The position numbers were made by a program, and so were the translations under genes. 64,000 nt of DNA, taken from NCBI GenBank assembly GCA_951406725.2, contig OX597821.1, positions 42,842,001 to 42,906,000 on the forward strand, written 5' to 3'. The notes below the pieces were generated by a model that was not told where the DNA came from, ran no database searches, and saw nothing but the letters and a program-made list of their open reading frames with translations. This document shows, piece by piece, positions 18,346 to 63,601 of this stretch; the first letter of the stretch is position 1; each line of letters begins with the position of its first letter. The DNA is from Octopus vulgaris. Lineage: Eukaryota.

Positions 18346-20320
18346 TGTGTACAGTGCTCAGGTGCACTACAACTCATCTAAAGTGTATATATAATCAGGT
18401 GAAGTTTCGGCGGATTTCGGAAAGCATGAGGGCCTTAAAAGATGCAGTGTCATGGCAGTCAACAACTGACGCAGGCAGTTTATTCCATGCTTCAGCAACT
18501 CTGAGCGTGAAAAAATGTTTCCGAAAGTCATGGGAGCTGTATTGTTTTCTGACTTTGTAGGCATGTCCACGTGTGTTAGACACATGGAGATCAAAAAGGT
18601 GTTCAGTGTTGTTGTTGGTGAGGTGGTTGATAACTTTGTGGGTGTTTACCAAGTCCGTCGCCAAACGCCGGAGCTTCAGTGAATCCATGCCCAGGGAAAC
18701 AAGGCGCTCAGAATATGGTAGGTGTCTGATGGAGGGTATGCGTTTGGTTGCACGTCTCTGGACAGATTCCAGGAGGTCAATGTTCTGTGCAAGATAGGGG
18801 TTCCAAACTGATGATGCGAATTCCAAGTGTGGTCGTACCATAGCTGTATACAGTTTTAAATAGATGGCTGGAGAGCGGCTAACAAAAGACCTGCTGAGTG
18901 ATGCCAAGACACCCTCGGCCTTCCTGACAATCTTAGAGATATGCTTTGACCAACGCAAATCACTGCTGACAGTGATGCCTAGGTCACGCTCGCAAGAGGA
19001 TTTCTTGATATCAGTGTTGTGGAGGGAGTATGTGAACGCAGGGTTTTTTCTCCCAAAATGCATGGTGGTACACTTGTCCACAGCCAGTTTCAGTTGCCAG
19101 TCTGTGATCCATTGCTGCATTGTGTCTAGGTCTGATTGCAGGAAAGAGTTGTAGACATCAGGATCTGTCCTCTTGATTTCAAGGTACAGCTTGATGTCGT
19201 CTGCATATTTCAATACTGTGGCATTCTTTAAATTGGCATCTATGTCGTTAATGTATGCCACAAACAAGAGGGGGCCAAGGACAGATCCCTGTGGTACACC
19301 CGATGACATCTCATATGGTGTAGAGTGCTGTCCTAGAACTGTGACTACCTCCTTTCGGCTGAGGATGAAGGATTTCAACCAGTTAAAAAGGTCATCCCCC
19401 ACACCCATTGCAGAGAGTTTCACCATAAGCCTTTTGTGTGGCACAGAGTTGAAAGCCTTAGCAAAGTCAAGGTAGACAACATCCACCCATGAGCCACTGT
19501 CAGTAATCTGAGTAATGTCCTCAAGGAACTCGACAAGCTGGTCACTGCAGCTGGAGTTAGGGACAAATCCATATTGTGAGGGTCGGATGAGACTGTGAGA
19601 GCTCCAGAAGTTCCAGAGTGTTTCTCTGACACACGATTCCATCAGTTTTGCAATACAGCTAGTGAGACTGACTGGGCGATAGTTGACAGGTGATGTGCGG
19701 TCGCCCTTTTTGAACAGAGGAATGACACTGGCAGTTTTCCACTGCTCCGGAGTAGCACCATTGTTGAAACAGTACTGGAAGAAAATAGAAAGCTGGTGTA
19801 AAAGGAAGTGCCTGCCACGTTTGAGAAGCAGGTATGTAACTCCATCGAGACCAGGGGAGGCATAGTTGCGCTTATTTTGAAGGTGACGTCGCAGCATTGC
19901 AGGTGTAAATTCCATAGTTGTTATGGAGTTTGCTGTTAGTGATGGTGAAGATGGTACATTTTGACTTTCAACAGTGAATATGTTTGCATAGCACTCGGCA
20001 ATGAGTTCTGCGCATTCCTTGGGGTCGTCAGTGATCTGGTTTGTGTGAGGGTTGCGAAGAGGGCCCACTGGAGAGTGAGGTCTCTGCTTTGAGTGCACAT
20101 ATTTCCAGAAAACCTTGCTGTCAGGATTGGCTGCTATGCACTGTTCAAATTCAAGCACTGCTTTTTTTGTCACTTGCTTGAGATGGTTGGAGGATTTATT
20201 CCGCTTCTTCCTGTTGGTGTCTGATTTATGCAACCTGTATTCCCGTTCAGCAGTCCGACGTTCCCTCCTGGCAAGTCGGACCGCTGAAGTTTCCCAAATT
20301 GCCCTTTTGGAAGTAAGTAA
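18308..20320 (-). mobile_element. 5'-truncated CR1-clade LINE with (TTA)n tail
   Basis: Uninterrupted RT ORF, short 3' UTR, then a (TAA)n tract on the plus strand. Confidence 0.9.
18395..20233 (-). CDS. CR1-type ORF2 reverse transcriptase (N-terminally truncated, frame intact)
   Basis: SPGLDG, NYRPVSLTS, YLDFAKAFNSVPH, SGVPQGSVLGPLLF, YADD, and the CR1 C-terminus TRGHAYK..RKHFFTLRVAEAWNKLP. Confidence 0.92.
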   Translation of the reverse strand: MHKSDTNRKKRNKSSNHLKQVTKKAVLEFEQCIAANPDSKVFWKYVHSKQRPHSPVGPLRNPHTNQITDDPKECAELIAECYANIFTVESQNVPSSPSLTANSITTMEFTPAMLRRHLQNKRNYASPGLDGVTYLLLKRGRHFLLHQLSIFFQYCFNNGATPEQWKTASVIPLFKKGDRTSPVNYRPVSLTSCIAKLMESCVRETLWNFWSSHSLIRPSQYGFVPNSSCSDQLVEFLEDITQITDSGSWVDVVYLDFAKAFNSVPHKRLMVKLSAMGVGDDLFNWLKSFILSRKEVVTVLGQHSTPYEMSSGVPQGSVLGPLLFVAYINDIDANLKNATVLKYADDIKLYLEIKRTDPDVYNSFLQSDLDTMQQWITDWQLKLAVDKCTTMHFGRKNPAFTYSLHNTDIKKSSCERDLGITVSSDLRWSKHISKIVRKAEGVLASLSRSFVSRSPAIYLKLYTAMVRPHLEFASSVWNPYLAQNIDLLESVQRRATKRIPSIRHLPYSERLVSLGMDSLKLRRLATDLVNTHKVINHLTNNNTEHLFDLHVSNTRGHAYKVRKQYSSHDFRKHFFTLRVAEAWNKLPASVVDCHDTASFKALMLSEIRRNFT

Positions 20321-35249: not shown

Positions 35250-37040
35250 AATTCTCTCATAGGCCCGTTGCGGCTGATTCGGTTATTGCTTGATCGTCTT
35301 CTCAACAACAACCTGATAATAAAAATGGAGACACCATGTTGAAGGCTATCGATGGTTTAACGCGCCAAATAGCTCAATTCTGTCATGTTAGACGGTGTTC
35401 GCGAAGCCGTTCTTTCTTTTCTCGACAACGTAGCAGTTTTTCAACCAACAATTCTTCGGTGTGCTGGTATCACGCACGTTTTCACGACAAGGCACGTCAT
35501 TGTAACAAGCCTTGTGCTTTTAAAGTGTCGGAAAACTGAATCTAGAGAGCCTAGGTACACATCAGACCTCTCTCACAACTTTTCAGCTAATTGTGCTTTC
35601 TTCATTAGGGACCTAGTCTCAAACAGGTCGTTCATGGTCGATACAGGATCTAGTTGCAGTATTTTGTCATTACAGTTATCCAGTATTTCCTTATACGCGG
35701 TGAACCAGTCTCCCATCAAAACCTACGGTCTGATATCTTTAACTCTAGACCTTGCCTTGCGTCAAGATTTTAAATGGATTTTTGTCACCACCGACCTGCC
35801 TCATCCTATCCTCGGGGAGGACTTCTTACACCACTATTCACTCTTGGTAGATGTCAAGAAACAGACTTATGGATACTACCTCATCTTTATCTACGTCTGC
35901 ATGTGAATCTACCGCTGCTATCCTCAGCCCACCATTTTTTGTAGCCTCTGCCAGTAACAAGTTCCATACTCTTCTTGCCTCGTTTCCTGAGTTAGCAGAT
36001 CTCTCATTTAAGCCTACCCAGACACTCCACTCGACTCAACATTTTATTACAACAACTGACCCACCTGTTTTCTAAAATGGATGCTATTCAGAAAATTGCT
36101 CCCCCTACTTCATTGAGACAAGTACGTCACTTTTGGGGGACAAGTTGTTTCCTCTTATACAAATTCTGAAATCCACAAAGAAGAAAGACTCATTTATTTC
36201 CCATTCTGTTGACGTCATGCAAGCTTTCGACTCCGTAAAGTCTGAATCAGCTAAAGTTTCCTTTCTCGCACATCCTGCTGTAAACGCGAAGCTATCCCTA
36301 ACTGTCGACGTGTCCACGATCGCTGTTGGCACCGTTTTAGCACATCATCAACCAGAAATCTCAACCGCTTGTCTTTTTCTCACGTCAACTCAAGCCAGCA
36401 GAACAGCGTTTCAGTACTTTTGACAGAGAGCTCTTAGCTGTTTATCTTGCTGTGAGACACTTGTGGCTTCTGGAAGGTCGGGAGTTCATAGTATTCACAG
36501 ATCATAAACCTCATACATTCGCTCTTCAATCCAGGTCTGATAAATACTCGCCGAGGACATACAAACACTTGGATTTAATCTCGCAATATACCTGCAACAT
36601 TCGTCCTATAGCCGGATCTGCAAACATAACTGCTGTTGCATTATCCAGACTTCCTGTGTGTTCACTTTCGTCTCCTGCACACATCGATTTGGCTGCTATC
36701 GCCACAGACCAATTCATTTTTTTTTTGCCGTCCCATCAGACATCTTTGAGTAGACACAAGTTTTTATTCGGAACGATTCCGTTAAAGGACCTCTTACATC
36801 ACTTTATTCTGGACCTTATCGTGTACTGTTGCACTCACAAAAAACCTTCATAGTCGACGTTAATGGTCGAAAAGAAACAATATCCATCTACAGAATAAAA
36901 AAGGCTTTCTCAGAAAATCTCATTCCAGAACCTGACATACCACGCACATTCATTCCTACACCAACACCACCACATGCACCGCAAACACAACATACCTCTA
37001 AACCTTATATCACAAGAAGTTGCAGAACAGTACATTAGCC
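35250..37040 (+). mobile_element. Heavily deleted Ty3/Gypsy LTR-retrotransposon relic
   Basis: gag CWYHARF..KARHCNKPCAF; protease FMVDTGS; RNase H LTVDVSTIAVG, FDRELLAVY and FTDHKP; integrase C-terminus GPY..KTFIVDVNGRKETISI and TRSCR; RT core and integrase core missing. Confidence 0.9.
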
Positions 37041-45289: not shown

Positions 45290-46805
45290 TAGTTAGCCAA
45301 AGCTAGTACAAATATGTCTACAGTTGTCTTGACATTTACTCTAAATGATAAGAAAATGATATGTACACATTTGCAAGTCTAAAGTTTAGAAAAAATGCTT
45401 TAGTTAAAGTAATGTATATTTCTTAGTGTTTGTTGTTTTGTTCGTATTCTGATATGGGTGGGTTTACTCAAGAACCTCATATCACCAGAAGCATGTAACA
45501 AGAAAACTTTTCATATACCCTACCCCAACAAACCAAACTGCATCTCTTCTTTTCCTCACATCTTTTCTTTCAAGCACTATGCTTACTTCTCACTCCATAA
45601 TCCTGTCCTCGTGGCCTTGTGCACTGTATCATTGCTATCAGGCAGCATCCCCTCACTCTCTCTATATACCAGGTTTTTACTAGTCACTACATTCCTCTCC
45701 CCTAGTCTCTACTCATGCTGCTTTGGCAGTGTCCTGCCACTTATATTATTACCTCTGTACCTCAAGAGTATGCCCTGGCACTTGACACCATCTCTCTCTC
45801 TCTCTCTTCTTTTACTCGACCATCCCATTTATATTCTGATCCCCATCCCTTGTGAGTATGCCTAGTACTCTGCCACCATATCTCTCCTGCTCTCTTGCTG
45901 TTTTCCACTCACTCCTTCTGCTCTTCCCTCAGGCTGGGTAACTATGTATCTAATTTACATCTGTTTCTGTCCTCATTCCTGATCTCTCTCACTCTTTCTT
46001 TAGCCAGGTAACCATATGTACTGCCTCTACAGCAAGACACCTGTTTCTGTCTCTGTTTCACTATCACCTTTCATCATCTGACACAAGATCACCTCCTCCA
46101 ATGTCCCCTCCCCTTTCAAAGGATCTTTGTCTTGCAAGTTACTTGGTGAGCCTGTCAGTGCTGGTGCCACATAAAAAGCATCCAGTCCACAATGTAAAGT
46201 GGTTGGTGCTTGGAAGAGCATCCAGCTGTAAAAACCTTGCCAAAACTGACCTTGCCTGTGCTTGTGCCACGTAAAAAGCACTCAGTCCACTCTGCTGAGT
46301 GGTTGGTGTTAGGAAGGATATCCAGCCATAAAACCCCTGCCAAAACAGACACAGAGGTCTGGTGCAGGTACCTGCTTGGCCAGCTCCTGTCAAACCATCA
46401 ATCCATATCAGCATGGAAGGTGGACGTTAAACAATGATGATGATGATGATGATGATAAATATTCATCACATCTACCGTAAAACAACAACACACTTTGGAG
46501 TTTCCCTCATCCACTCATCTACTTAGTTTTTGTAACAAAAATGTTGGGATCATTATTAATCACTTGAAACTGTGATTTGGTGTTTGGACTTTTCAGAGTT
46601 TCTAGATTGTAATAAACACTTTATCCTTGAATATTGGTGTTTCTCTCTATATGTGAACATAATCCATACCAGAGCCTTATTTGCTAACCAAGTTGTTCAT
46701 TACATAAGTAATTGAAATACACAAACAATTGCAGCGTGGAAGGTGTTTATAAGCCATTTAAGAAACACACAAAACCGTTAGATTCACTTCAACATTTAAA
46801 TTTAA

Positions 46806-46856
46806 TTTGTCAAAATATTTTCGTCACTTTGAGACTGCGACCTGTTCACTGACAAA
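46806..46856 (-). ncRNA. Minimal type-I hammerhead, G3-C8 variant
   Basis: TTTGTCA-GTGAACA-g-GTCGC(9 nt)GTGAC-GAA-AATATT-T-TGACAAA; 7-bp stem I and palindromic stem III. Confidence 0.72.
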
Positions 46857-46865
46857 ATTCTGTGC

Positions 46866-46908
46866 TCAGTGAACAGGTCGCAGTCTCAAAGCAACGAAAA
46901 TATTTTGA
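46866..46908 (+). ncRNA. Minimal type-I hammerhead, G3-C8 variant (stem I truncated to 3 bp)
   Basis: TCA-GTGAACA-g-GTCGC(9 nt)GCAAC-GAA-AATATT-T-TGA. Confidence 0.6.
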
Positions 46909-47900
46909 CAAATTAAATTTAAATGCTGAAGTGAATCTAACGGGTTTGTGCGTTTCTTAAATGGCTTATAAACACCTTCCACGCTGCAATTGTTTTCGTT
47001 CCAGCACACGATCTCACATCAAGTCACTCGCTATGCAAGTACATCTCCGTAATTCTGAAATACATACAAATAGGGGTAATCTGTTTCAAGCCACATCTAG
47101 ACTCCACATAAAGGTATGAAATGATGTGGTATTTTAATCAATTTTGTTATGCAATCATAATATACTACTAAGTATATTAAACACTTTATAAGTCAATACT
47201 GTGACTTACCATATTAGCAGAGCTATTAAATCATTTTTTTAAGGTTATCCCTACAGATTTTCTGTCGAAATTATAGCCAGTACTGATTTATTATGACATT
47301 TTATATCCGAATAAATCTAATGTAAACAATGTGATCGAAAACAGAAAAATAAGCAATGGGTGTAAAAGCATAATTCAAGAGTTTTTGTTCCTTCTTCAGC
47401 ACCAAATCCACCCCTTAACCATCCATGAACTCATTGCTTAAACAGCTACTAAATGTGGTGCTGAATTACTTGTAGCAAATTGTATCCTTTTATTACATTT
47501 TATGGACAACCTTCTCTTTGGGACACATATTTAAAAAATCAAATTCATTTTTCCCAAGGATGCACCGTTTCAGAGCCATTTGGGGCTAAACACACATACA
47601 CTTACATTTATATTGTAGCAACTTGGGCAAGTGTTTTCTACAAAAGCCTCAGCCCGACCAAAACCTTGTGAGTGGATTTGATAGACAGAAACTGAAAGAA
47701 GCCATTTGTATATATATTTTCCGGGTGTTTCATCTTTCAGATGTTCTCCCTGGAGGTAAGACGGTTTTTTTTCTCTATTTTGTTGCACACACGCATTTTT
47801 GCTAATACATACGCGGTGAAGCTACACATTAGCGTTGTATTTTTACGTTCGCTATTTCCAGTAAATATCGGTACTTAGTTGTTACATTTATTTACTAATT

Positions 47901-52593: not shown

Positions 52594-52861
52594 ATGATCA
52601 AGATTGGTCGTGTGAATGCGCGTGGCTTGGTGTCCCCTTGAAAACAAGGGTACCTCTTAAATGACATAAAGTCGCACAAGTTAGAAATCATAGCCATGAG
52701 ACCAGACTCCATAATCCACAGGCCCTAAAGTCCATGTTTGGCGGACAATTTAACATATATTTTTCTCCCTGTCTGTGGCACCGCGGTACTTTTTCGCAAG
52801 AGTCTGGATCTCGAAGTAAAAAATATTCGTATACCCGGAGGGTAGACTGGTCGTCCTAGAT
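52594..52861 (+). pseudogene. Apurinic endonuclease (APE) N-terminus of Tx1 ORF2
   Basis: MIKIGRVNARGL..., ETRL and PEGRLVVLD motifs, with a stop and frameshifts. Confidence 0.75.
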
Positions 52862-54594
52862 GCACGGACTGAAGAAACCACCTGAACCAAGAGTACCATT
52901 TGATTTGAGCGACATCAAACGGAAAGAAATGGATGAATTCATAAGGAAAGCAAGAGCAGAATGTGCACCAGGGAACGATGGAGTGAGCTACAAGGTATAC
53001 AAATATTGCCCAAAATTACGTTTGCAGCTGTTTGCACTGATAAGAGAAATGTGGAAGAAGAAAGATGTAGCGGAGCGATGGTGTATAGCCGAAGGTATCT
53101 ATCTACCTAAAGAAAAAGAGGCAAAAGCACTAGGCCAATTAAGATCAATTTCACTACTAAATACAGACGGGAAAATCATGTTCGGAATAATTGCTAGACG
53201 AATTATAAGATTCGTACAGCATAACGGATACATTAATGAAGCGATTCAAAAAGCAGGAATCCCTGGGTGCATAGAACACGCATTTTCCATCTGGGAAGCC
53301 ATCACTTGTGCAAAACAAAAGAAGACAAACCTGTATATTGTTTGGCTAGATGTTGCCAATGCCTATGGATCTGTTCCGCATGCAATAATAAAAACAGCGA
53401 TGGACGTCTTTTGGATTCCAAAAGATGTTCAACGAATGCTCATGTCGTACTACGACAACCTGAAGATGAAATTTACAGCAGGTAAGTTCACAACGGAGTG
53501 GCAACGGCTTGAAATAGGTATTGCAGCCGGATGCACGATATCAGTCATCTTATTCGTGCTAGTCATGGAAATGCTACTCAGATCTACAAACTGTGAGAAA
53601 GCGACGCAAGAAGCTAGAACCGGCCTAGCATCGCAAAACTTCAGGCCATTTTGCAAGAGAAAAAGAGATGAAAGAGGCAGTGGTATACGAAGTGAGAAAG
53701 GAGGAAGAAAGGCGAAATGTACATTTGGTGCAATGCAGTCAACAGGGACAGTGCATGAGATGGGAGGAATATGTGATCAACCGCAGAATATCATGGAAGG
53801 AACTTTGGGCTTGGGAACAAGCAAGAACATCCTTCCTGATCAAGTCTACCTTCGACGTTCTACCCTCACCGGCGAACTTAGTCCGGTGGAACATAAAAAC
53901 AACCGACGAGTGTATATGCGGAGAGAAAGCGACGGTTAGACATGTTCTGTCAGGTTGCAGACTAGCAATTGAAAGATATACATGGCGGCATAATCAAGTC
54001 CTCGGCGTCATAAGCGCAACACTCAAAGATAAGATCGAGAGGTACAATAGGGGAGAATACCCAAAAGTAGAAAAGCGCAGGAGAGTGTACTTCCACAAGG
54101 AGGGAAAAGGTTATAAAACCAGGCCTACAAGTAAAGTATACGAGATAGACGAAAGATGGAAGGGATACTGGGAGGTGGCCACGGACTTGGAAAGACAAGT
54201 AATATTTCCACTAATAAAAACAACAAAAAGACCGGATTTAGTTCTTTGGAACAGAGACCTGAGAATGGGAATTTTACTAGAACTGACAGTACCTTGGGAA
54301 GAGAACATCGGCAATGCAGAGGAACGAAAGGAGAAGAGGTATGAAAAGCTAATCGAAGAATGCAGAGAACAGGGATGGAATGTCGAATATTATCACCTGG
54401 CAGTGGGGGCTAGAGGCTTCATTGAAAAAAAAATGATAACGCTTTTCAAAAGAAGATTTGTTTTTTCTAGCCCCGAGCTGCGTAAACTAATAAGGAGAGT
54501 ACAGGAGGCGGTCGAAAAAGCCAGCTTCTATATATGGCTGAAGCGGGAAGACCGAAAATGGCTTGAAAGTCATAAACATGCCGACGGGAAATAA
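52860..54594 (+). pseudogene. HERO-clade RT plus restriction-like endonuclease, internally deleted
   Basis: APGNDGV, IQKAGIPGCIEH, WLDVANAYGSVPH, GCTISVILF; deletion near 53598 removes the catalytic DD motif; then DVLPSPANL, CICGEKATVRHVLSGC, RYTWRHNQVL, RPDLVLW and ELTVPWEE (RLE). Confidence 0.88.
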
Positions 54595-56430: not shown

Positions 56431-58132
56431 CCCCAATCCCTTATCTAGTGGTCAATGAGAAAACTAGGGATAGATGAATGGTTAGTGAGAGCTGAGCAAG
56501 CCATGTACAAGGATGCTTTCAGTAAGGTGAGGGTTGGCAACGAGTACAGTGAAGAATTCCAGGTAGAGGTAGGGGTCCACCAAGGTTCAGTCCTCAGCCC
56601 CCTCCTATTTATCATAGTGCTCCAGGCAATAACAGAAATTCAAGATAGGATCCCCTGGGAGCTCCCATATGCTGATGACCTTGCTCTAATTGCCGAGTCA
56701 CTATCAGAACTAGAGGAGAGGTTTCAGGTGTGGAAACAAGGATTAGAATCGAAGGGCCTTAGAGTCAACCTAGCTAAAACCAAAGTCCTAATAAGTAGGA
56801 AGGCAGGCAAACCACAAGTCCCTTCAGGTAGATGGCCCTGCTCAATCTATAGAAAAGGCGTAGGTAGAAACTCTATAAAATGTACCCAGTGTAAGCTATG
56901 GACACATAAGAAGTGCAGCGATATCAAAGGAAGGTTAACTGGGAAGATAGTTTTTGTGTGTGGCAGATGCTCAGGAGCAATAAATAACGCTGAAAATGTG
57001 CAGAGAACAACTTCCGCCACATTCCAGGGAGAAAAACTAGAAGTAGTTAATAACTTCCATTACCTAGGTGACCAAGTCAGTAGCAAGGGAGGGTGCGCTG
57101 AAAGTGTAGCTGCTAGAATAAGAATAGCCTGGGCAAAGTTCAGAGAGCTCTTACCTCTGCTGGTGACAAAAGGCCTCTCGCTCAGAGTAAAAGGTAGACT
57201 GTATGATGCATGTGTACGAACAGCCATGCTACATTGCAGTGAAACATGGGCTGTGACTGCTGAGGACATGCATAAGCTTGCAAGGAATGAAGCCAGTATG
57301 CTCTGATGGAAGTGTAATGTCAGTGTGCATACTCGACAGAGTGTAAGTAACTTGAGAGAAAAGCTGGACCTAAGAAGCATCAGATGTGGTGTGCAAGAGA
57401 GACGAATGTGCTGGTATGGCGAGAATGGATGGGGATAGCTGTGTGAAAAAGTGCCACACTCTAGTGGTTGAGGGAAACTGTGGAAGAAGTAGACCCTGGA
57501 AGGCCTGAGATGAAGTGGTGAAGCATGACCCTTGAACATTAGGCCTCACCAAGGCAATGACTAGTGATCGAGACTTTTGGAAATATGCTGTACTTGAGAA
57601 GACATGGCAAGCCAAGTGAGACCATAACATCGTGGCCTATGCCAGGGGTGTAACCAGCCCACTTATGTATACCTTTCCTTCATTGGACACTAAACTCTGT
57701 TGAGGCAAGTGAAATCGAAATCGAAATCAAATTTGATGACTGGCATCTGTGCTAGTGGAGTGCTAAGAGCACCATCCAAGCATGATCGTTGCCAGCATTG
57801 CCTTACTGGCACTTGTGCCGGTGGCATGTGAAAAAACATTCGAGCGAGGTTGTTGCCAGTGCCACTGGACTGGCTCCTGTGTAGGTGGCTTGTAAAAAAC
57901 ACCATTTGAGCGTGGCCGTTGCCAGTACCGCCTGACTGGACCTTGTGCCAGTGGCACGTAAAAGCACCCACTACACTCTCGGTGAGGTTGGCGTTAGGAA
58001 GGGCATCCAGCTGTAGAAACTCTGCCAGATCAAAATTGGAGCCTGGTGCAGCCGTCTGGTTCGCCAGTCTCAGTCAAATTGTCCAACCCATGCTAGCATG
58101 GAAAGCAGACGTTAAACGATGATGATGATGAT
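56430..58132 (+). mobile_element. 5'-truncated RTE LINE
   Basis: GVHQGSVLSPLLF, YADDL, embedded Cys/His finger, FHYLG, RTE C-terminus; 3' UTR with subrepeats and (GAT)n tail. Confidence 0.92.
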
Positions 58133-62460: not shown

Positions 62461-63601
62461 AAGTAGTTGATAGCTTCCGTTATCTAGGTGACCAAGTCAG
62501 TAGTGGGGGTGGGTGCGCTGAGAGTGTAACTGCTAGAATAAGAATAGCCTGGGCAAAGTTTAGGGAGCTCTTACCTCTGCTGGTGACTAAAGGCCTCTCG
62601 CTCAGAGTAAAAGGCAGACTGTATGATGCATGTGTACGAACTGCCATGCTACATGGCAGTGAAACATGGGCCGTGACTGCTGAGGACATGCGTAAGCTCA
62701 TGAGGAATGAAGCCAGTATGCTCCCATGGATGTGTAATGTCAGTGTACTTACTCGACAGAGCGTTAGTTCCTTGAGAGAAATGTTGTACCTAAGATGTTG
62801 TGGTGTACAAGAGAGACGATTGCGCTGGTATGGTCATGTGGCGAGAATGGATGAAGATAGGTGTGTGAGAAAGTGCCAATCCCTAGCAGTTGAGGGAACC
62901 CGTGGAAGAGGTAGACCCAGGAAAACCTGGGACGAGGTGGTGAAGCACGACCTTCGAACGTTAGGTCTCACCATGGAAATGACTAGAGACCGAGACCTAT
63001 GGAAGTATGCTGTGCGTGAGAAGACCCGGCAAGACTAGTGAAGCCATAACCCGTGGCCCCTACCTGGGACGTAGTCAGTCCACCTGTGCATACCTTCCTG
63101 CTTGTGACACTTGTGAAGACCTGTTGAGGCAAGTGAAAATCAAATCAAATCAAATCAAACCAAATCAAAATAGATGAACATCAATGGAATTTGTATCCTT
63201 GTGGTACCAGTGCCGGTGGCACATAAGAAAACCATCTGAACGGGACCGTAGCCAGTACCGCATCGACTGGCCTCCGTGCTGTGGGCACGTAACAAACACC
63301 ATCCGATCGTGGCCGTTCGCCAGCCTCGTCTGGCACCTGTGTCGGTGGCACATAAGAAAACACCGAAAACACCATCCGAGCGTGGCCGTCTGCCAGCCTC
63401 GTCTGGCACCTGTGTCGGTGGCACATAAAATCACCCACTACACTCTCGGAGTGGTTGGCGTTAGGAAGGGCATCCAGCTGTAGAAACACTGCCAGATCTG
63501 ACTGGCCTGGTGCAGCCTTCGGGCTTGCCAGACCCCAGTTGAACCGTCCAACCCATGCTAGCATGGAAAACGGACGTTAAACGATGATGATGATGATGAT
63601 G
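62461..63601 (+). mobile_element. 5'-truncated RTE LINE
   Basis: VDSFRYLGD..ARIRIAWAKFRELLPLL..RRLRWYGHVARM..GRGRPRKTW; tandem 3' UTR units and (GAT)n tail. Confidence 0.92.

What the first reader, a model, noticed from the sequence alone, without database searches (positions are those of the whole stretch)
46723..46995. Foldback with divergent G3-C8 hammerheads on both strands
Seen: the core reads GUGAACA instead of CUGANGA, so positions 3 and 8 have swapped together (C-G to G-C). Stem II, GAAA, a palindromic stem III (AATATT) and, on the minus copy, a 7-bp stem I are intact. The two copies diverge from the foldback centre. Established: the 3-8 tertiary pair tolerates compensatory swaps. Penelope-like elements carry minimal type-I hammerheads whose palindromic stem III forms by dimerization, and they often insert with an inverted truncated LTR. 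Inference: this is a small non-autonomous PLE/retrozyme-like unit whose transcripts could self-cleave in either polarity, reminiscent of viroid-like RNA layout.
Basis: partly seen in the sequence, partly recalled or inferred. Interest (0 to 1): 0.75.

Follow-up and report, generated by a model that had tools for sequence, protein, structure and literature searches.

The report
Penelope hammerhead with naturally swapped core
This hairpin is one of thousands of short, inverted copies of the front end of a Penelope-type retrotransposon; its hammerhead-shaped RNA has two paired core letters swapped (G3-C8) relative to sister families, which likely keeps it weakly self-cleaving, while the two-strand layout is likely only a by-product of how the element inserts.

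Summary
The foldback is real (130-nt arms, 96%) and both arms carry a type-I hammerhead shape reading GUGAACA. It is not a stand-alone retrozyme or viroid-like unit. 31 of 64 sampled loci are foldbacks, each with its own centre. G3-C8 is the family state (95 of the first 100 of 6,024 matches); five related families keep C3-G8 in the same fold with compensatory stems, so the swap is a natural covariation. I found only U3-A8 reported as natural and G3-C8 as an engineered partial rescue, but could not read one key paper. Cleavage in both polarities is unlikely: the plus copy is damaged, and in either direction the antisense arm is made first and buries the ribozyme (67-70 kcal/mol). Activity is untested. 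New variant of a known kind.

The parts
46713..46721 (+). left copy of the target-site duplication (9-nt exact core; about 12 nt with a 2-nt indel)
46723..46865 (-). inverted arm: PLE 5' leader with hammerhead, ending at the first (short) 3' end, about 35 nt into the ORF
46806..46856 (-). intact G3-C8 minimal type-I hammerhead motif (7-bp stem I, 5-bp stem II, AATATT helix III, U17; predicted cut after 46813)
46853..46866 (.). inversion junction (5' ends of the two arms meet; differs from copy to copy)
46866..47051 (+). direct arm: truncated leader with hammerhead, running to the second (long) 3' end, about 90 nt into the ORF
46866..46908 (+). damaged G3-C8 hammerhead copy (3-bp stem I, C-A mismatch in stem II)
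46961..47050 (+). first 30 codons of the PLE RT-endonuclease ORF
46996..47051 (+). 56-nt PLE tail, present on one arm only
47056..47064 (+). right copy of the target-site duplication

Best explanation
The locus is a short copy of the front end of a Penelope-like retrotransposon, likely made when its reverse transcriptase primed inside the start of the ORF and copied only the 5' leader, once on each target strand, leaving a foldback with a tail on one arm; the leader holds a hammerhead whose 3-8 pair is swapped to G3-C8 and which is predicted to cleave weakly, as a dimer or with help from the element's protein, in the parent's single-stranded RNA and not in this foldback. Shown: parent element, ORF continuity, two 3' ends, fixed 5' end, variable centres, target duplications, family-wide G3-C8, C3-G8 in relatives. 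Inferred: internal priming (from the published anole PLE biochemistry), that the 5' pile marks the RNA's 5' end, selection on the pair, catalysis.
For: Parent L157: 1,025-aa frame with RT motifs and GIY-YIG (Pfam PF01541, E 1.8e-5, above cut-off; homologues named RT-domain proteins), the same motif about 1 kb downstream and a 1.78-kb inverted copy at its 5' end. L364 and L365 run from the hammerhead through the ATG in frame into the ORF. 3' ends: 54 of 95 arms at +176..+183 and 37 of 95 at +120..+130 from G3; the sister family has two ends 56 nt apart at the homologous places. 31 of 64 loci are foldbacks, 27 with one long and one short arm. 5' ends: 32 of 89 arms in an 11-nt bin, p 2e-13 against a flat null. 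Duplications of 9-14 nt in 30 of the 43 foldbacks not flagged as TA runs, of 60 examined. G3-C8 in 95 of the first 100 of 6,024 matches, in old and young ORF lineages. 14 copies of 6 families: 3-8 pair CG 11, GC 3, unpaired 0; 7 of 12 pairs with double changes; 88.7% paired against 22-46% when slid. In one arm stems I and II form with p 0.64-1.0; in the foldback the hammerhead fold costs 67-70 kcal/mol. PMC11167929: priming at two sites inside the ORF start gives the tail, both strands are extended, C3G/G8C partly rescues a PLE hammerhead.
Against: No cleavage assay and no raw RNA reads. The 3-8 swap is one evolutionary event, so it counts once; the 14 rows were picked by a pattern that demanded C or G at 3 and 8, and kin inflate the shuffle test. 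G3-G8 copies exist (86 of the first 100 of 260 matches; 4 of 9 old ORF-bearing copies with a readable motif), and the sister family reads C at position 9 in 96 of 100, so intact cores are not strictly needed to spread. Most copies contain the uncut motif; only 2 of 95 arms start at the cut site and both have other explanations. The helix III dimer is worth only -0.2 kcal/mol and cofolding did not give the dimer. Pfam's RT model did not hit the parent.
Confidence: 0.85

Rival explanations
1. Same PLE origin, but the G3-C8 motif is catalytically dead or irrelevant and is kept only as a protein-binding or translation-control structure, or by drift.
For: Hammerhead mutants did not change insertion in vitro and no RNA-seq ends were seen at the cut site in the anole PLE. 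G3-G8 and C9 lineages spread. Nearly all copies come from uncut RNA. U17 after UU is a poor site (recalled).
Against: A double change that restores exactly the 3-8 pair is hard to get by drift; core and stems are the same in old and young subfamilies while both loops changed (not significant alone). Weak hint of starts at the cut site: 7 of 28 TA-flanked truncations at 0..+2, p 0.08.
Confidence: 0.35
2. The foldback is a non-autonomous retrozyme or viroid-like unit whose two strands both self-cleave and circularise.
For: Motifs on both strands; thousands of copies; retrozymes derive from PLE pLTRs (bioRxiv 10.64898/2026.07.22.740005).
Against: 0 of 64 loci have a second same-strand arm in the fetched flanks, no tandem array here, centres vary, ends map to ORF priming sites, plus copy damaged, and the antisense arm precedes the ribozyme in both directions.
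Confidence: 0.05
3. The foldback is a MITE or foldback DNA transposon and the hammerhead look is chance.
For: Long near-perfect inverted repeat, high copy number, no Rfam hammerhead hit, z -1.13.
Against: 33 of 64 loci have a single arm, arms are unequal, the sequence is contiguous with an RT ORF, and stems covary across families.
Confidence: 0.02

Closest known systems
Minimal hammerheads in pLTRs of metazoan Penelope-like elements (Cervera and de la Pena 2014, PMC4209133)
   Same: Type I, extra base between 9 and 10.1, G10.1-C11.1, palindromic helix III, mostly solo truncated copies, some pairs on opposite strands 100-700 bp apart.
   Different: The core covariation reported there is U3-A8 (Schistosoma); here it is G3-C8, which that consensus (CUGANGAH) would miss.
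Poseidon element PAc of the green anole (Frangieh et al. 2024, PMC11167929)
   Same: Hammerhead at the pLTR-ORF junction; two 3' ends inside the ORF start that bound a tail; AT-rich targets.
   Different: Tail 56 nt against 30-40; hammerhead lies wholly upstream of the ATG; zinc-finger linker present; G3-C8 is natural here and an engineered rescue there.
Neptune and Nematis clades of C-terminal EN+ PLEs (Craig et al. 2021, PMC8557442)
   Same: CX2-5CxxC linker, two cysteines between GIY and YIG, inverted 5'-truncated copies, tails, frequent (TA)n targets.
   Different: Clade placement against reference elements was not tested.
Metazoan non-LTR retrozymes (PMC7229834; bioRxiv 10.64898/2026.07.22.740005)
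   Same: Short, non-coding, type-I hammerhead, PLE-related.
   Different: Retrozymes are head-to-tail tandems that give circles; these copies are solo or head-to-head and end inside the ORF.

Membership tests
Penelope-like element, C-terminal EN+ | single ORF with RT followed by GIY-YIG | tested here: met
   Parent L157, 1,025 aa; PF01541 E 1.8e-5; RT motifs read by eye; homologues named RT-domain proteins; Pfam RT model itself did not hit
Penelope-like element, C-terminal EN+ | pLTR with hammerhead, formed by partial tandem before the ORF | tested here: met
   L365/L176, L364, L393
Penelope-like element, C-terminal EN+ | inverted 5'-truncated copy and a tail at one end | tested here: met
   27 of 64 loci with long plus short arm; L157
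Penelope-like element, C-terminal EN+ | spliceosomal intron in the pLTR (some PLEs) | tested here: inconclusive
   Branch-point and acceptor-like motif at the 5' pile but no exon 1 in 73 copies
Neptune/Nematis clades | CX2-5CxxC linker and CCHH | tested here: met
   Read by eye; definition
Neptune/Nematis clades | RT phylogeny against reference elements | not tested
   No reference PLE set on hand
Minimal type-I hammerhead | core boxes with a Watson-Crick 3-8 pair, stems I and II, A15.1-U16.1, H17, palindromic helix III | tested here: met
   Minus copy; covariation. Plus copy fails stems
Minimal type-I hammerhead | self-cleavage at N17 | not testable with these tools
   Genomic 5' ends give only a weak hint
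Non-LTR retrozyme | head-to-tail tandem units each with a hammerhead | tested here: not met
   0 of 64 loci with a same-strand second arm
Non-LTR retrozyme | circular RNA | not testable with these tools
   Only assembled contigs were offered
MITE / foldback DNA transposon | fixed unit bounded by terminal inverted repeats | tested here: not met
   33 of 64 loci single-armed; unequal arms; variable centres

The most novel reading that the evidence does not exclude
This is the first natural, selected, catalytically active G3-C8 hammerhead lineage, invisible to CUGANGA and U3-A8 descriptors and present in thousands of copies; the genome's PLE families (C3-G8, G3-G8, G3-C8, C9) form a natural mutational series that tests whether PLEs need self-cleavage, and the short copies are a fossil map of the element's RNA ends, including cut ends at U17.
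Probability: 0.35. Interest if true: 0.62.

Novelty: new variant of a known kind. Interest (0 to 1): 0.43.

Why it matters
The role of PLE hammerheads is open: they are widespread, cut poorly, and were dispensable for insertion in vitro. A natural compensatory swap of the 3-8 pair, so far an engineered rescue in the papers I could read, argues that the catalytic fold is under selection in the transposing RNA, and shows that standard descriptors miss whole families. The copies also confirm, genome-wide and in an invertebrate, the internal-priming model for the PLE tail and add a fixed 5' end. About half of the sampled loci are long hairpins that would make double-stranded RNA if read through (inference).

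Tried and rejected
Rfam: no hammerhead hit, only hairpin miRNA models below gathering score. Same-strand pairs at C2:10.49 Mb and C2:171.24 Mb were not full elements. G3-G8 as the preserved intermediate between C3-G8 and G3-C8: not supported; the four ORF-linked G3-G8 copies are not one clade (p-AU 0.014) and sit among G3-C8 copies, root weakly supported (two rows under 600 columns left out). Cap-derived G at the 5' end: G at -24 in 26 of 73, C in 14, T in 18; not decisive. Spliced exon 1: none found. RNA: no RNA holder listed; contigs cannot show ends. PDB sequence search of the RT part: 0 hits. Protein atlas gave no answer. Earlier scan findings: none. Lunse et al. 2017 and Przybilski and Hammann 2007 were not held. 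Whether the locus lies in a host intron was not determined.

Full report
Observation. The inverted repeat is there: arms 46723-46852 and 46866-46995, 96% complementary. Both arms read GTGAACA where a hammerhead has CUGANGA. The minus copy (46856-46806) has a 7-bp stem I, an extra G after A9, a 5-bp stem II closed by G10.1-C11.1, GAA, the palindrome AATATT and U17. The plus copy keeps 3 bp of stem I and has a C-A mismatch in stem II. Rfam does not call it and its folding z-score is only -1.13, so the case rests on comparison.

A large family. The window lies in a 2.8-Gb genome; the closest named homologue of the parent protein is an Octopus vulgaris RT-domain protein at 62%. A 30-mer from the arm matches exactly 3,338 times and the core pattern 6,024 times, reversed-pattern controls 0. 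The sequence is also held under three other species labels, with the same ends and no variant at positions 3 or 8 listed at 3% depth (absence of a row is not proof). The 22 loci from the foldback search all differ at the centre, and the shared sequence runs on about 55 nt beyond one arm only. In the window this tail is 46996-47051.

The parent. Copies that extend upstream pass through about 1 kb of microsatellite-rich sequence into a GIY-YIG frame. L157 has a 1,025-aa open frame with RT motifs, a CxxxCxxC linker and GIY-YIG, the same hammerhead downstream, and a 1.78-kb inverted copy at its 5' end. L364 and L365 run from the hammerhead through an ATG in frame into this ORF, and window 46961-47050 encodes its first 30 residues. 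The window copy belongs to an older subfamily (9-nt loop II) linked to decayed ORFs 81-92% identical to L157.

How the foldback arises. I sampled 64 loci from the first 100 matches (long inverted pairs fetched separately and the last few were left out, which biases against long copies). Of 95 arms, 54 end at +176..+183 and 37 at +120..+130 from G3; 31 loci are foldbacks, 27 of them long plus short; 33 are single; none has a second same-strand arm within the fetched flanks. 32 of the 89 arms that do not run upstream start at -29..-19 (p 2e-13); starts between -18 and +6 are imprecise because loop I varies. Target duplications peak at 12-13 nt. Frangieh et al. showed for an anole PLE that RT starts at two sites inside the ORF start, that these bound the tail, and that both target strands are extended (PMC11167929). 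Applied here (inference): priming at the first junction of the RNA copies only the leader, up to the RNA's 5' end near -23, and two cDNAs joined head to head give the foldback. The -23 site fits both an initiator-like and a splice-acceptor-like motif (consensus recalled); no exon 1 was seen in 73 copies, which favours a start site.

The swap. G3-C8 is the family state: 95 of the first 100 matches, 157 of 173 distinct instances in my loci, in young and old ORF lineages. A sister family (53-60% protein identity over thumb and endonuclease; N-termini align at E 4e-34) has a hammerhead at the same place with C3-G8 in 98 of the first 100 of 3,313 matches and the same two 3' ends. A generic search gave 18,988 canonical cores against 2,479 controls and more families with this stem II; one has the same stem I and stem II start and differs in the core only at 3 and 8. 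In 14 hand-picked copies of 6 families the 3-8 pair is CG 11, GC 3, never unpaired, and 7 of 12 pairs show double changes. Limits: the rows were chosen by a pattern with C or G at 3 and 8, kin inflate the shuffle test, and the swap is a single event.

Against strict need for catalysis. G3-G8 copies number about 220 (86 of the first 100 of 260), are enriched in one loop-II variant (9 of 100 against 1 of 100, p 0.02) and occur in 4 of 9 old ORF-bearing copies. They are not one clade and do not branch basally, so I cannot call them the intermediate. The sister family has C at position 9 in 96 of 100. Only 2 of 95 arms start at the cut site; among TA-flanked truncations 7 of 28 distinct loci (counted by eye from the first 100 rows) start at 0..+2, p 0.08.

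Both polarities. The two motifs are one ribozyme copied twice, facing outward. RNA read through the locus in either direction makes the antisense arm first and folds into a 130-bp hairpin; forcing the hammerhead costs 69.6 (plus) and 67.4 (minus) kcal/mol, whereas a single leader forms both stems. No tandem units exist here. The viroid and retrozyme reading fails.

Literature. PMC4209133 (parts 1-2 of 4 read; supplement file 2 searched, file 1 not available) reports PLE minimal hammerheads, U3-A8, opposite-strand pairs and low activity; no octopus entry. PMC3088659 (passages) reports natural U3-A8. G3-C8 appears as an engineered variant in PMC11167929 (parts 1-2 of 4), PMC8495972 and PMC3884650 (passages). 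Passages only: PMC8557442, PMC6765202, PMC2377424, PMC6155905, PMC7229834; bioRxiv 10.64898/2026.07.22.740005 part 1 of 5 and passages, supplements closed. Searches showed no natural G3-C8 family. Lunse et al. 2017, which catalogues PLE hammerhead variants, was seen only as a reference and may hold prior examples.

Verdict. Real; an ordinary PLE insertion product carrying an unusual, probably selected core variant. New variant of a known kind, interest 0.43.

Noticed in passing
L161:8384-8433 and G000-wide: Sister PLE family with many open 1,310-aa frames carries a hammerhead with C instead of A at position 9 in 96 of the first 100 of 3,313 matches; a second fixed core variant.
   Followed up: partly
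L172, L173, L350, L393 and L277-L306: Recurrent G3-G8 mismatch copies, some on both arms of a foldback, enriched in old ORF-bearing copies and one loop-II variant; not one clade. Unexplained.
   Followed up: partly
L248-L276: About 19,000 canonical hammerhead cores genome-wide; most of the first 100 belong to one further abundant family that also forms outward-facing pairs.
   Followed up: no
L161, L270, L271 upstream of the hammerhead: A GTAAGT splice-donor-like motif lies about 25-40 nt upstream of the hammerhead in two related families; in the sister family 7 of 28 5' ends fall about 35-45 nt before it, recalling the short first exon of Drosophila Penelope.
   Followed up: no
L040:1478-1500 type copies (406 exact matches): The 5'-end pile coincides with a branch-point, pyrimidine tract and AG motif that also reads as an initiator.
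   Followed up: partly
window 18395-20320 (-), 52860-54594 (+), 56449-57306 (+), 62463-63038 (+), 35373-36853 (+): Frames that look by eye like LINE reverse transcriptases and LTR-element protease and RNase H remnants; not scanned.
   Followed up: no
window 46158-46350: Two 100-nt tandem copies, 79% matching, about 370 nt left of the element; unrelated to it.
   Followed up: no
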